From Eledone cirrhosa (Eukaryota), in contig OZ024747.1 of the NCBI GenBank assembly GCA_964016885.1, positions 48,112,001 through 48,176,000 on the forward strand: DNA of 64,000 nucleotides, read 5' to 3'. Below, piece after piece: positions 26,285-61,990 of this stretch. The notes under the pieces were generated by a model. The model did not search any database, was not told where the DNA came from, and saw only the letters and a program-made list of their open reading frames with translations. The stretch's first letter is position 1, and each line of letters starts with the position of its first letter. The position numbers were made by a program, and so were the translations under genes.

Positions 26285-26577
26285 TTTCGTTTCTGAATTT
26301 GTTTAGCAAGATTCTTTATCTGAAATCGTGTGTTGAAAGAAAGGAAAGGCACAGAAACGAAGAAAGAAATCCCCAGTCACTGAAGAGGTCACAGAGTGTG
26401 TGACGAAAGAACTATGACTATATATATATAAACAACTATCTGGTTGTGGAACCAACCAACCAACCAGAAATTTATAAATTTGTAAATTTATAAATATATA
26501 TTAAATTAAATTGAAGTGAAAGCAACTGGTGCGTGTGTTTCTTATTGGCAACATGACCCTCCCAAAGTATAACAACA
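26285..26577 (+). mobile_element. Penelope-like pLTR-type repeat (family H) copy 1, with inverted ORF-start segment
   Basis: Homologous to 43746-44030 and 61691-61990. Contains a hammerhead and an ATG at 26553 (MTLPKYNN). The continuation [17 protein letters not shown] lies inverted at 26285-26337. Confidence 0.7.
26375..26419 (+). ncRNA. Type I minimal hammerhead ribozyme
   Basis: AGTCA-CTGAAGA-G-GTCACA(GAGTG)TGTGAC-GAAA-G(AA)C-TA^TGACT: full core, 5-bp stem I, 6-bp stem II, CUA cleavage triplet. Confidence 0.85.
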
Positions 26578-27425
26578 TATATATACATATATACATATAT
26601 ACATATATATACATATATACATATATATATATATATATACATATATATATATATATACATATATATATATATACATACATACATACATACATATATATAT
26701 ATACATATATATACATACATACATATATATATATACATATATATACATACATACATATATATATACAAATATATATACATACATACATACATATATATAT
26801 ACATATATATATATATACATATATATATATATACATATATATATATATACATATATATATATACATATATATATATATACATATATATATACATATATAT
26901 ATACATATATACATATACATATATACATATATATATATACATATATATATACATATATACATATACATATATACATATATATATATACATATATACATAT
27001 ATACATATACATATATACATATATATATATACATATATACATATATACATATATATATATACATATATATATATACATATATACATATATATATATACAT
27101 ATATACATATATATATATACATATATATATATACATATATACATATATATATATACATATATACATATACATATATACATATATACATATACACATATAT
27201 ATATATACATATATATATATACATATATATATATACATATATACATATATATATATACATATATACATATATATATATACATATATACATATATATATAT
27301 ACATATATATATATACATATATACATATATATATATACATATATACATATATACATATATATATATACATATATATATATACATATATACATATATATAT
27401 ATATATATATACATATATATATATA

Positions 27426-28380
27426 CAAAAGGTCATCAATGGCGTGGATGACCGGATAAGCCTTCAGTCAGACCTACTGGCTGTTACCCAATGGGCAGAA
27501 AAGAACAACATGTTACTGAACGAAGACAAATTCGAACTGATCCACTTTGGAAAAGAGGATGCTCTGAAACTCCCGTACTCCCTTCCCTCCGGGGAAACTC
27601 TCGTGGCATCTAACAACATCAGAGACTTGGGAGTAACCGTGGACAGCAACATAAGCTGGACCACGCATATAAGCAGCAAAGTTGACATGGCCCGCAGAAT
27701 GTGTTCCTGGATCCTCAGAACCTTCCAGTCGAGAGATTCCCGCACCATTATCCTTCTCTTCTCTACTTTCGCCCGACCACACCTTGAATACTGTTGTCCA
27801 CTGTGGTCTCCCCACACGAAACAAAGTATCATGAAACTTGAAGCTCCTCAAAGGGCAATCACGAAAAAGATAGATGGCATGTCAGACCTTGACTACTGGG
27901 GTCGATTGGAAAACCTGAAACTTTACTCACTCCAACGTCGCCGTGAGCGTTATATTATCTGCATGATGTGGAAAATGTTCCATCATCACTGCCCAAATGA
28001 TGTTGGCATCGCCTTCAAGATACACCCAAGGCTTGGGGCCCCGTGCTATCCGTCCCATTCAAAAATCTAAATCGCAACTCATAACAACAATACGGCACAA
28101 TTATTTCACCTCAATCGGCCCTGCTCTCTTCAACATCACACCAGGACACGTCAAAACAGAAACTGACCACACAAAATTCAAGAAGTCTTTGGACAAATTC
28201 CTCCAAGTAATCCCGGACAAACCACCCACACCCGGATATGTCTCCGCAAACAGTAATTCTCTTCTCGAATGGGCCATGGTGCCCAAATCCTGAATTGAAA
28301 GACTTCGCCAGGTGGTGCTATTAAGTTAGACATGGCCTGGGCCAATACTGGCCAAAACATTTCAAAGTTATTCAAAGTTA
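27426..28380 (+). mobile_element. 3' fragment of CR1/L2-group LINE (family 2)
   Basis: Translates [47 protein letters not shown], with a frameshift near 28035, then GPALFN..NSLLEW (stop 28293). Tail is (TTCAAAGTTA)x2. Confidence 0.85.
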
Positions 28381-31300
28381 TACATATATATATATACATA
28401 TATACAATATATATATACATATATACATATACATATATACATATATACATATACACATATATATATATACATATATATATATACATATATATATATACAT
28501 ATATACATATATATATATACATATATACATATATATATATACATATATACATATATATATATACATATATACATATATATATATACATATATACATATAT
28601 ATATATACATATATACATATATACATATATACATATATACATATATACATATATACATATATATATATACACATATATATATATATACACATATATACAT
28701 ATATATATATACATATATACATATATATATATATACATATATATATATATACATATATATATATATACATATATATATATATACATATATATATATATAC
28801 ATATACATATATATACATATACATATATATACATATACATATATATACATATACATATATATATATATACATATATATATATATACATATATATACATAT
28901 ACATATATATATATATACATATATATATATATACATATATATATATATACATATATATACATATATATATATATACATATATATATATACATATATATAT
29001 ATATATACACATATATATATATATACATATATATATATATACATATATATATATATACATATATATATATATACATATATATATATATACATATATATAT
29101 ATATACATATATATATATATACATATATATATATATACATATATATATATATACATATATATATATATACATATATATATATATACATATATATATATAT
29201 ATACATATATATATATATACATATATATATATATACATATATATATATATATACATATATATATATATACATATATATATATACATATATATATATATAC
29301 ATATATATATATATACATATACATATACATATATATATATATACATATATATATACATATATATATACATATATATATATACATACATATATATATACAT
29401 ACATATATATATATATACATATATATATACATACATATATATATACATACATATATATACATATATATATATACACATATATATATATACATATATATAT
29501 ATACATACATATATATACATACATATATATATACATACATATATATATACATACATATATATACATATATATATATATACATATATATATACATATATAT
29601 ATATATACATATATATATACATACATATATATATATATATACATATATATATATATACATATATATATATATATACATATATATATATACATACATATAT
29701 ATATATACATACATATATATATATACATACATATATATATATACATATATATATACATACATATATATATACATACATATATATACATACATATATATAC
29801 ATACATATATATATATACATATATATATACATACATATATATATATATACATATATATATATATACATACATATATATATATATACATACATATATATAT
29901 ATATACATAATATATATACATATATATATATACATATATATATATACATATATATATATACATATATATATATATACATATATATATATATACATATATA
30001 TATATATATACATATATATATATATATATACATATATATATACATATATATATATACATATATATATACATATATATATATACATATATATATATACATA
30101 CATATATATATATACATATATATATATACATACATATATATACATACATATATATATATACATATATATATATACATACATATATATATATACATATATA
30201 TATATACATATAATATATATACATACATATATATATATACATATATATATATATACATACATATATATATACATATATATATATATACATACATATATAT
30301 ATATACATATATATATATATACATACATATATATATATACATATATATATATACATATATATATATATATACATACATATATATATATACATATATATAT
30401 ATACATATATATATATACATATATAATATACATATATATATATACATATTTATATATACATATATATATATACATATATATATATACATATATATATATA
30501 TATACATATATATATATACATATATATATATACATATATATATACATATATAATATTACATACATATATATATATATACATATATATATATACATATATA
30601 TATATACATATATATATATACATATATATATATATAACATATATATATACATATATATATATACATATATATATATATACATATATATATTACACATATA
30701 TATATATACATATAATATATACATATATATATATATACATATATATATATACACATATATATATATACATATATATTATATAACATATATACATATATAT
30801 ATATATATACATATATATATACATATATATAATATATACATATATACATATATATATATATACATATATATATATATACATATATATATACATACATATA
30901 TATATATATACATATATATATACATATATATATATATATATACATATATATATACATATATATATATACATACATATATATATATATACATATATATATA
31001 CATACATATATATATATATATACATATATATATATATACATACATATATATATATACATACATATATATATATACATACATATATATATATACATATATA
31101 TATACATATATATATATATACATACATATATATATATATACATATATATATATACATACATATATATATATATACATATATATATACATACATATATATA
31201 TATATACATATATATATACATACATATATATATATATACATATATATATATACATACATATATATATATATACATATATATATATATACATATATATATA

Positions 31301-60176: not shown

Positions 60177-60239
60177 TATATCTCTCTCTAGACACTAACT
60201 CTACCAGTTGCAGTCTGCACATCAACATGAGATATTTTT

Positions 60240-60590
60240 CTCCACAAAGTTCTATTACCAACAGCAGAGTTTAAAGAGCAAAGGTCAAGTCCAGTCCATA
60301 AGTTGACATTATCAAGCCATTGTCTTTGGCTGCTGACCTCTGCTTCTCTTACCAACCAACTTTCCTTCTAGGCATATAACTTACTCACACCACAAGTTGA
60401 TCTTTTGATATGACCATACAGTTTAAGCACTCTTGACTTGACAACTGATGTGATTGGTCTAACCCTGGTGATGTTGAGCAGCCCACTGATACAGATATGG
60501 TCACTGAGCCACTTGCCAGTCATAAGTCTCATGATGTGGTTCTGGAATGTAGAGAGCTACTGAAGTGACCTTGTCATCCAATTAACACAA
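60240..60590 (-). mobile_element. Degenerate RTE C-terminal fragment
   Basis: FQNHIMRLM..VKSRVLKLYGHIKR..EGKLVGKRSRG. Confidence 0.6.
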
Positions 60591-61690
60591 TCAAGACCAA
60601 GCTAGTATATATATATATAGAGACAAGAGTCAGGACACTGCCGGGTGAGCTCCGGCCGTTTCAACAGCTAGATCCGAACTAAGCCAGCAGTATTAGAAAC
60701 GTGTGAATCTAGCTGAACTTATCAAGGGGTACAGTCCATATATGGGCATGCAGTCAAAACAAAAAAAGCAGAAATATCAAAGCAAAAAATCCTAAAAAAT
60801 TATTTGTTTTTCTTGTCTGTCATGGGGAGTGGTCAATGATCTGGGATGTCATGTACATAGTTAAATTCCTTCATAGTGGTGGGGCTGAAATGGCCTGAAG
60901 AACGAAGGAGTGGGAGTAAGAAGACAGTCTGACCTGTGGGTGTCAAGCCAGTCAGGTGTTAAGAGAGAAATCTATACAACTCTCTATCATTTATAGAGAT
61001 ACAATTCAAAGAGATAAGAATATAATTTCAGCATGTAAGAATCAAAGATGGTGGTTAGAGAGTTTAAATTAAGTATGCCTAATCTAACACTGAGCTAAAG
61101 AGCAAAGCATTTAGATGTTAATACTAATTCAGTTCCTGATAAAAAAATGTAGTTATCAATTACTCTAATGCATAGGAAGGGCACTTCAGTACACTAATTT
61201 ACTAGTATTTTCTTTTATAATCCTACACTCCCCAAAATCAACCCTAGTCTAGTAAGGTGTCATAGCTATCTGTTTGGCTGGTTCCATAGGACTGTATGTA
61301 TATTTTAACAAGAGTAAAAATATTCCGGGTTTACCTAAGGATGATTAGGAACTGTTTATAATGGCGTAAATATGCAAAGATCCACCTAAGTGTAATTAGA
61401 ATGTGTAACTAACAAAGAAAAAAATTCTATTTCTATCTAAGTACGCTTGGGATTTCCTCTATCTTAGCTTGTAATTGGGAAGGAGATACAGCCGAGGTCT
61501 ACCCACCTGGGTCATGAGGCGGTTTGAAGGTAAGATATGTCTTATATATTCTGTGTTTACACGAGGTAACGAGCTCAGCCGTTGGCGTCCTGACTCTCTT
61601 CCCTATAACCCACTCTACTACCCTAAGTATCGAGTACATTATATGATCCACCTGGTATCTTACCATACCTTTGTTATATATATATATATA

Positions 61691-61990
61691 TATTTGTCTT
61701 GCAAGGTTTTTAATATGAAATCGTGTGTTGAAACAAATATTGTTATATTTGGGGAGGGCCATATTTTTATAATATTGGCAGAAATAATAATAAAACACAC
61801 TGTTTGGTTTGGATTGGTTTTCACTTCTGTATATTTTATATCCCTATAGTTAATTTAGCTGGCAATCAATGTTTATCATTGATAAAAAATGGTTAAAAAT
61901 ATAGACATGAATATATATATATAATCTATCAAAGTTCTTTCATCACACACCTGTGACATCATCAGTGGTACTATTATGTTTCCTCCCATT
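61691..61990 (-). mobile_element. Family H PLE-like repeat copy 3
   Basis: Homologous to 43746-44030; MALPKYNNICFNTRFHIKNLARQI from the ATG at 61762. Confidence 0.72.
61927..61970 (-). ncRNA. Type I minimal hammerhead ribozyme
   Basis: TACCA-CTGATGA-T-GTCACA(GGTG)TGTGAT-GAAA-GAAC-TT^TGATA. Confidence 0.72.

What the first reader, a model, noticed from the sequence alone, without database searches (positions are those of the whole stretch)
26285..61990. Dispersed ~300-bp repeat family coupling a hammerhead ribozyme to a conserved ATG-initiated peptide, in inverted pLTR-like arrangements
Seen: three diverged copies (26285-26577 +, 43746-44133 -, 61691-61990 -) each keep a complete hammerhead core. 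The core is CUGA[A/U]GA, stem II GUCACA/UGUGA[C/U] with a different loop in each copy, GAAA, a tiny G-AA-C stem III and a CUH site. About 140-170 nt downstream is the same peptide start, M[TA]LPKYNNICF[YN]T[RQ]F[HQ]IKNL[AT][KR]QI. It is contiguous in two copies; in the first it is split and its second half is inverted. Two of the three copies contain an inverted segment. Established: Penelope-like elements carry minimal type I hammerheads in pseudo-LTRs that extend into the ORF start and are often inverted. Inference: these are solo pLTRs or a non-autonomous, retrozyme-like derivative of an uncharacterised PLE family. None of this is obvious from the ORF track.
Basis: partly seen in the sequence, partly recalled or inferred. 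Interest (0 to 1): 0.75.

Follow-up and report, generated by a model that had tools for sequence, protein, structure and literature searches.

The report
Truncated ends of a Penelope retrotransposon
The three repeats are cut-short ends of a protein-coding Penelope-type jumping gene with over ten thousand copies in this genome, laid out in the back-to-back, one-tailed pattern already described for the group; the less ordinary trait is a conserved extra piece of about 70 amino acids in its reverse transcriptase, which likely marks a branch not named in the papers searched.

Summary
In detail: three real minimal hammerheads, each 138-170 nt before the same ATG. They are not a retrozyme. They are 5'-truncated insertions of an autonomous C-terminal-GIY-YIG Penelope-like element (PLE). 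The peptide is the start of its ORF: an intact 1267-aa RT-EN frame exists (L172), folding like telomerase RT plus I-TevI. Copy 1's subfamily is young (11,167 exact 28-mer hits). Copies end at ORF +26 or +86 in (TA)n; in 21 of 21 scorable inverted pairs one arm ends at each site, and arms share one source. Copy 1's 'split, inverted peptide' is that tail arm. 5' ends do not pile up at the predicted cut (1 of 63), so most templates were likely uncut. All this matches published PLE anatomy. The distinctive trait: 126-132 aa between RT motifs 3 and 4 in 102 of 120 homologues (canonical 56-60), with a Nematis-length zinc linker. The scan had already noted this insert and the two-site ends on other DNA. 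Cleavage and clade placement are untested.

The parts
26284..26338 (-). Copy 1, inverted arm reduced to the tail (ORF about +30 to +86)
   Evidence: 100% over 55 nt to natural tandem element L175
26337..26578 (+). Copy 1, direct arm: end of 3' UTR, hammerhead, 5' UTR, ORF +1 to +26; young subfamily
   Evidence: 99.6% over 242 nt to L175; 8 genomic places identical over 236 nt
26375..26419 (+). Minimal type I hammerhead, copy 1; predicted cut after 26414
   Evidence: sequence, scan, fold; activity untested
26553..26578 (+). First 26 nt of the PLE ORF (short end site)
25898..27450 (.). (TA)n-rich microsatellite into which copy 1 is inserted (both flanks)
43741..44027 (-). Copy 2, direct arm with hammerhead and tail (ends about ORF +77); older subfamily
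44034..44134 (+). Copy 2, inverted arm ending at ORF +26
43964..44007 (-). Hammerhead, copy 2 (stem I 3 bp); predicted cut after 43968
43729..43737 (.). Candidate 9-bp target-site duplication, partner at 44129-44137 (5 nt overlap the element end)
   Evidence: identical 9-mers; AT-rich, single case
61692..62015 (-). Copy 3, single arm with tail (ends about ORF +71) before (TA)n; older subfamily
   Evidence: 89% over 325 nt to L089
61927..61970 (-). Hammerhead, copy 3 (C.A mismatch in stem I); predicted cut after 61932

Best explanation
The three repeats are 5'-truncated insertions of one protein-coding, hammerhead-bearing Penelope-like retrotransposon family, each made of the element's 3' UTR end, hammerhead, 5' UTR and first 26 or 71-86 ORF bases, and they were likely made by its RT-GIY-YIG protein priming DNA synthesis on both ends of a cut in AT-rich DNA. 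Shown: element anatomy, intact ORF, two fixed end sites, one of each per inverted pair, same source for both arms, (TA)n target, read-through of the hammerhead. Inferred: transcription of a tandem locus gives a longer-than-unit RNA; a likely dimeric protein starts one cDNA at ORF +26 and the other at +86 (both sites end in AATAT, which could pair with the TA target); both cDNAs stop early at variable points and are joined head to head. The hammerhead is predicted to be weak and dimer- or protein-dependent and was likely uncut in most copied RNAs.
For: EN frame directly upstream of the repeat in 35 of 39 loci. Peptide continues into the ORF in older copies (L088, L089, L104, L106, L107, output partly cut) and in an unbroken 1267-aa ORF. 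Model of aa 501-1267 (pLDDT 88.9) best matches telomerase RT (7trd Z 15.3, rmsd 3.7, 360 aligned) and I-TevI (Z 10.3, rmsd 2.1, 88 aligned). Exact-match counts fall from 11,167 at the pLTR to 813 at ORF +688 and 433 at +86, as 5' truncation predicts. First 100 pattern hits: 98 scorable, 50 end at exactly +26 and 37 at +86, 93 followed by TA-rich DNA; 24 inverted pairs, 21 scorable, all 21 with one short and one tailed arm (p about 4e-7). Arms differ 0.8% within pairs against 4.5% between insertions (23 pairs). 41 of 63 ORF-start copies run through the upstream cut site. Same layout, tail and two RT start sites in PMC8557442, PMC3846280, PMC11167929.
Against: No RNA or biochemical data. The query ORF itself has no significant Pfam hit; RT and GIY-YIG rest on motifs, homologues, a profile search and the model. 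Arm similarity could also come from later gene conversion. One full-length copy (L172) starts exactly at the predicted cut, twice, and truncation is denser just downstream of the cut (0.0019 per nt) than upstream (0.0004) or in the ORF (0.0010), so some templates may have been cut. PMC11167929 found initiation without homology to the target, unlike the AATAT overlap here. Self-priming on an antisense template (PMC3846280) is not excluded. The 100-copy sample is the first 48 Mb of one contig.
Confidence: 0.92

Rival explanations
1. The 300-bp unit is a separate non-autonomous retrozyme or solo-pLTR family that replicates as a small circular RNA.
For: pLTR-end copies outnumber ORF-start copies 26-fold; retrozymes derive from pLTRs (bioRxiv 10.64898/2026.07.22.740005, section 14); one short same-strand neighbour at 143 nt (L149).
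Against: No monomer arrays among 192 cores in 219 loci; no fixed 5' end, many copies run on into the EN ORF; all three window copies map colinearly on longer elements. The loci were chosen by similarity or as first hits, so rare arrays could be missed.
Confidence: 0.04
2. The hammerhead cuts the template in vivo; cut unit-length RNAs are ligated or bridged by template jumps, which rebuilds the tandem junction, so read-through copies hide the cleavage.
For: L172 begins at the cut; higher truncation density downstream of the cut; cores kept in 10 of 30 distant metagenome relatives, 114-391 nt after the EN, sense strand only, against 1 of 600 shuffles; stem II 100% paired; model proposed in PMC4209133.
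Against: Only 1 of 63 5' ends within -3 to +5 of the cut, and that one is TA-ambiguous; none at -14 to +1 among 100 3'-pLTR copies; hammerhead mutants did not affect insertion for the Anolis element (PMC11167929).
Confidence: 0.2
3. The inverted arms arise by fold-back self-priming of one cDNA or of an antisense RNA rather than by priming from both target ends.
For: Arms share one source; proposed in PMC3846280; some junctions are near-palindromic.
Against: Both outer ends sit at fixed sense-strand ORF sites, one at each; arms have unequal, independent 5' ends, and either arm can be the longer.
Confidence: 0.12

Closest known systems
C-terminal EN+ Penelope-like elements with inverted pLTR and one-sided tail (PMC8557442 Fig. 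2 legend and text; Pen2a_Av in PMC3846280)
   Same: Single RT-GIY-YIG ORF, pLTR reaching into the ORF start, partial tandems, inverted truncated copy, tail on one end, AT-rich targets, Asn-rich stretch in the ORF.
   Different: Tail is 60 nt in the young subfamily and about 45-50 nt in the older ones (published 30-40); RT motif 3 to motif 4 spacing 128 aa against 56-60.
Nematis clade (PMC8557442 Figs S2, S7)
   Same: CX4CxxC linker followed after 7 aa by the first Cys of the CCHH endonuclease motif (27 of 29 metagenome matches, 6-8 aa in 56 of 60 protein matches); DKSG; C-terminal EN.
   Different: The three published Nematis rows lack the insert (spacing about 60, counted from Fig S7) and have motif 4 GLAMG, here GAAIG/GGPIG; published examples are from nematodes. 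No tree could be built.
Neptune clade
   Same: Zn linker present, (TA)n targeting, hammerhead.
   Different: Neptune spacer after CxxC is over 20 aa (Fig S2; a co-resident family has 23), here 7; no insert in Neptune.
PAc (Poseidon) of Anolis, PMC11167929
   Same: Two reverse-transcription start sites inside the ORF start that define the tail; hammerhead not needed for insertion.
   Different: PAc lacks the Zn linker, its ORF starts inside the hammerhead, its start sites lie near +111-118 and have no homology to the target.
Minimal type I hammerheads of metazoan PLEs, PMC4209133
   Same: Long stem II, unpaired base before it, short stem I, tiny stem III.
   Different: Stem III/loop is only pseudo-palindromic here (A.A or G.A mismatches in a dimer).
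Telomerase RT IFD; Naiad/Chlamys IFD
   Same: Insertion at the same place between motifs 3(A) and 4(B); telomerase is the closest solved fold.
   Different: The modelled insert did not superpose on telomerase IFDs; EN is C-terminal, not N-terminal.

Membership tests
EN+ Penelope-like elements | Single ORF with telomerase-related RT | tested here: met
   1267-aa ORF; telomerase RTs fill the top 14 rows, Z 13.4-15.3
EN+ Penelope-like elements | C-terminal GIY-YIG endonuclease with CCHH motif | tested here: met
   Motifs at aa 1157-1211; I-TevI Z 10.3 over model 660-757; homologue P0072 passes Pfam GIY-YIG cutoff
EN+ Penelope-like elements | pLTRs from partial tandems, inverted truncated copy, one-sided tail | tested here: met
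EN+ Penelope-like elements | Hammerhead motif in the pLTR | tested here: met
   (motif only)
Canonical C-terminal EN+ PLEs as described in PMC8557442 | No insertion between RT motifs 3 and 4 | tested here: not met
   128 aa in the query, 126-132 in 102 of 120 homologues, 18 not scored by the pattern; 56-60 counted from Figs S1/S7
Nematis clade | Short CX2-5CxxC linker close to the EN | tested here: met
   7-aa spacer as in Fig S2
Nematis clade | Groups with Nematis in an RT tree | not testable with these tools
   No Nematis or Poseidon reference protein was available from a tool
Neptune clade | Long spacer (over 20 aa) between CxxC and the EN | tested here: not met
   7 aa against 23 in a co-resident family and Fig S2
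Hydra clade | No CCHH; DKT; CxCX5C linker | tested here: not met
   CCHH, DKSG and CX4CxxC present
Naiad/Chlamys | N-terminal endonuclease | tested here: not met
   EN follows RT
Telomerase IFD | Insert shares the IFD fold | tested here: inconclusive
   Core superposes over 105-125 aa at rmsd 2.6-3.8; alignments of 133-148 aa only at rmsd 7-14, Z at most 6.7
Non-LTR retrozymes | Head-to-tail arrays of a non-coding hammerhead monomer | tested here: not met
   1 short same-strand neighbour among 192 cores in 219 loci
Active hammerhead ribozyme | Self-cleavage at NUH | not testable with these tools
   No RNA run listed; needs a bench assay
Active hammerhead ribozyme | Stem covariation | tested here: inconclusive
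   19 distinct rows: stem II 100% paired but 5 of 6 pairs invariant; stem I 74% paired, 2 pairs with double changes, 390 of 500 shuffles as high. Distant relatives keep the core with unrelated stem II sequences

The most novel reading that the evidence does not exclude
This family represents an unnamed, widespread branch of C-terminal-endonuclease Penelope-like elements whose RT independently gained a folded 70-aa subdomain at the telomerase IFD position, and it has a young, intact, high-copy member whose insertions show strict two-site, two-ended priming from one RNA source, making it a ready system to test how PLE tails and inverted arms form.
Probability: 0.45. Interest if true: 0.5.

Novelty: new variant of a known kind. 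Interest (0 to 1): 0.3.

Why it matters
Two things add value. First, the RT insert contradicts the statement in PMC8557442 that canonical C-terminal-EN elements lack an insertion there, and bears on how telomerase-type insertions arose. Second, thousands of near-identical young insertions plus an intact ORF let the open questions in that paper (origin of tail and inverted arms, role of the hammerhead) be tested by counting and in vitro. Both points were also reached by other agents of this scan on other DNA.

Tried and rejected
Rfam scan of the window: the 150 of 394 rows shown were all microsatellite-driven miRNA matches below threshold; no hammerhead among them, the rest unseen. Whole-window self-BLAST timed out; repeated with microsatellites masked. 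Pfam on the element's own ORF pieces: nothing significant; single-sequence PDB search likewise. Idea that hammerhead cleavage sets the 5' end of full-length copies, prompted by L172: no pile-up, 1 of 63 (63 of the 100 listed of 433 matches: 11 further units of one tandem array, one locus already held and 25 later rows were not taken). First reading as Neptune clade: dropped on linker length. Insert equals telomerase IFD: no good superposition, which does not prove a different fold. Twin hairpins after the two end sites, a lead from earlier findings: not seen in 5 folds; only the +86 site has a modest hairpin, z -1.9. No RNA holder listed; no reads were laid, so expression and RNA ends stay open. 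A GTGAGT 5'-splice-like motif before the ATG in the older subfamilies was seen but not tested. One search's 3'-end column was mis-indexed and was redone. Literature searches for a described clade with this insert returned only PMC8557442, PMC3846280 and the 2026 retrozyme preprint; Repbase, Dfam and Arkhipova 2006 could not be searched.
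Full report
Observation. The three copies, their hammerhead cores and the shared peptide start are in the sequence as described. 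Four cores with a stem II of 6 bp or more occur in the window (the three copies and one unrelated core) against none in 100 shuffles. The cores have the features that PMC4209133 (parts 1-2 of 4 read) gives for minimal PLE hammerheads: long stem II, an unpaired base before it, short stem I, tiny stem III. Stem I is intact only in copy 1.

Setting. The window lies in a 3.0-Gb, microsatellite-rich animal genome. The best named relative of the element's protein is an Octopus vulgaris prediction at 69% identity, so the host is likely an octopus; I did not try to name it further.

What the repeat is. Genomic relatives of copy 3 share a fixed 3' end before (TA)n and ragged 5' ends. Upstream, the longer ones carry a zinc linker and GIY-YIG frame. 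Of 39 loci found with that frame, 35 have the repeat directly behind it, and the longest show RT motifs. Searching with the ORF's N-terminal part gave 25 loci; in the part of the output shown, several have the repeat directly in front with the peptide running on. Copy 1 belongs to a much younger subfamily: 8 places identical over 236 nt and 11,167 exact hits of a 28-mer, control 0 (two-armed insertions count twice). Copy 2's relatives also join EN and RT pieces. So the unit is the pseudo-LTR of an autonomous element in three subfamilies (proteins 50-70% identical).

Protein. Pfam gives no significant hit on the ORF itself. Homologues carry RVT_1 below cutoff and, in one of five tested, GIY-YIG above it. 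A model from 34 sequences (pLDDT 88.9) matches telomerase RTs best and I-TevI over the C-terminal domain. The ESM Atlas lists eukaryotic RT/HTH_animal/DUF8422 clusters at 0.94-0.96. 174 proteins pass E 1e-20 and 130 metagenome stretches encode relatives; 10 of 30 with enough DNA after the EN carry a sense-strand minimal hammerhead there, against 1 of 600 shuffles.

How insertions are built. In the first 100 pattern hits, 98 had a scorable 3' end: 53 near ORF +26, 43 near +86, one displaced by an indel, one running into the ORF; 93 were followed by TA-rich DNA. Of 24 inverted pairs, 21 had both ends scorable and all 21 had one short and one tailed arm (p about 4e-7). Arms differ by 0.8% within a pair and 4.5% between insertions; the partner was the joint-closest arm in 16 of 23. 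Copy 1 is such a pair whose inverted arm kept only the tail, which explains the split, inverted peptide; copy 2 is a pair with a candidate 9-bp duplication; copy 3 is a single tailed arm. PMC8557442 (passages; sections 3, 12, 17; supplement parts 1, 54, 57-59 of 59) and PMC3846280 (passages) describe this layout, and PMC11167929 (parts 1-2 of 4) ties the tail to two RT start sites and predicts a dimer. I infer priming from both target ends, one at each site, on RNA from one source. Both sites end in AATAT, so pairing with the TA target is possible; this is not tested.

The hammerhead. L172's full-length arm starts exactly at the predicted cut, which suggested an in vivo footprint. The test failed: of 63 copies holding the ORF start, 33 ran at least 560 nt past the upstream cut, 8 ended upstream, 21 downstream and 1 within -3 to +5. 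Truncation is denser just downstream of the cut than upstream, so a minority of cut templates, or a start site in the pLTR, remains possible. Covariation inside the family is weak because stem II hardly varies. No retrozyme-type arrays were seen (compare bioRxiv 10.64898/2026.07.22.740005, abstract and section 14 read).

What differs from described clades. Spacing from the motif 3 Asp to the motif 4 Gln is 128 aa, and 126-132 in the 102 of 120 homologues that the pattern scored. Counting by eye in Figs S1 and S7 of PMC8557442 gives 56-60 for Penelope, Nematis and Neptune, about 84 for a Naiad and 115 for human TERT; the paper says canonical PLEs lack this insertion and Coprina have it sporadically. 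The insert is as conserved as neighbouring RT regions and models confidently, but does not superpose on telomerase IFDs. The zinc linker has Nematis length, not Neptune length. Four paper searches found no description of such a branch, but Repbase, Dfam, Fig. 8 of PMC8557442 and Arkhipova 2006 were out of reach, and PMC13282606 (passages) already counts 30 recently active Penelope families in O. vulgaris, so the sequence may sit in a library unclassified.

Earlier scan notes. After I had reached these readings (notes), look-ups showed that other agents had noted the same insert in this genome (e1-9508900) and the one-of-each ends and uncut hammerheads in other families. These are not independent support. 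The twin-hairpin lead was not borne out here.

Verdict. Real feature, correctly guessed as PLE pseudo-LTRs, not a retrozyme; known anatomy; a variant RT that likely marks an unnamed branch. Interest 0.3.

Noticed in passing
window 57198-57700 (+): A second, unrelated PLE remnant: hammerhead cores at 57208 and about 57656 around a GIY-YIG piece (57400-57573); relatives have a Neptune-length 23-aa linker.
   Followed up: partly
window 62705-62765 (-): Another hammerhead-like core with a 9-bp stem II, folding z -3.0; parent not sought.
   Followed up: no
window 15640-19227 (-), 21555-24662 (-), 3120-5354 (-), 53928-56539 (+): Long open non-LTR retrotransposon frames: an L1/Tx1-like ORF2 of 1195 aa and RTE-like frames, two of them 96% identical (family names from recalled motifs).
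   Followed up: no
G000:C1:132947029-132947556 (L298-L305): A 46-bp piece of the ORF start repeated 12 times at an insertion junction.
   Followed up: no
L172 oriented 4370-4450: At the junction of the two arms the full-length arm starts at the predicted hammerhead cut twice, with a short duplicated piece between, as if synthesis restarted.
   Followed up: partly
G000:C3:89.39-90.27 Mb (L102, L104, L106, L107): Six similar ORF-start copies within 0.9 Mb, likely a duplicated segment.
   Followed up: no
L174, L128: Fragments resembling the Hydra PLE clade next to insertions of this family (compared by eye with Fig S7).
   Followed up: no
window about 43856 and 61800 (-); L013, L089: A GTGAGT 5'-splice-like motif about 45 nt before the ATG in older subfamilies; the young subfamily has GTGCGT there.
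   Followed up: no
young subfamily hammerheads: Loop III alternates GAAC/GGAC; the GGAC form would give tandem G.A pairs in a dimer.
   Followed up: no
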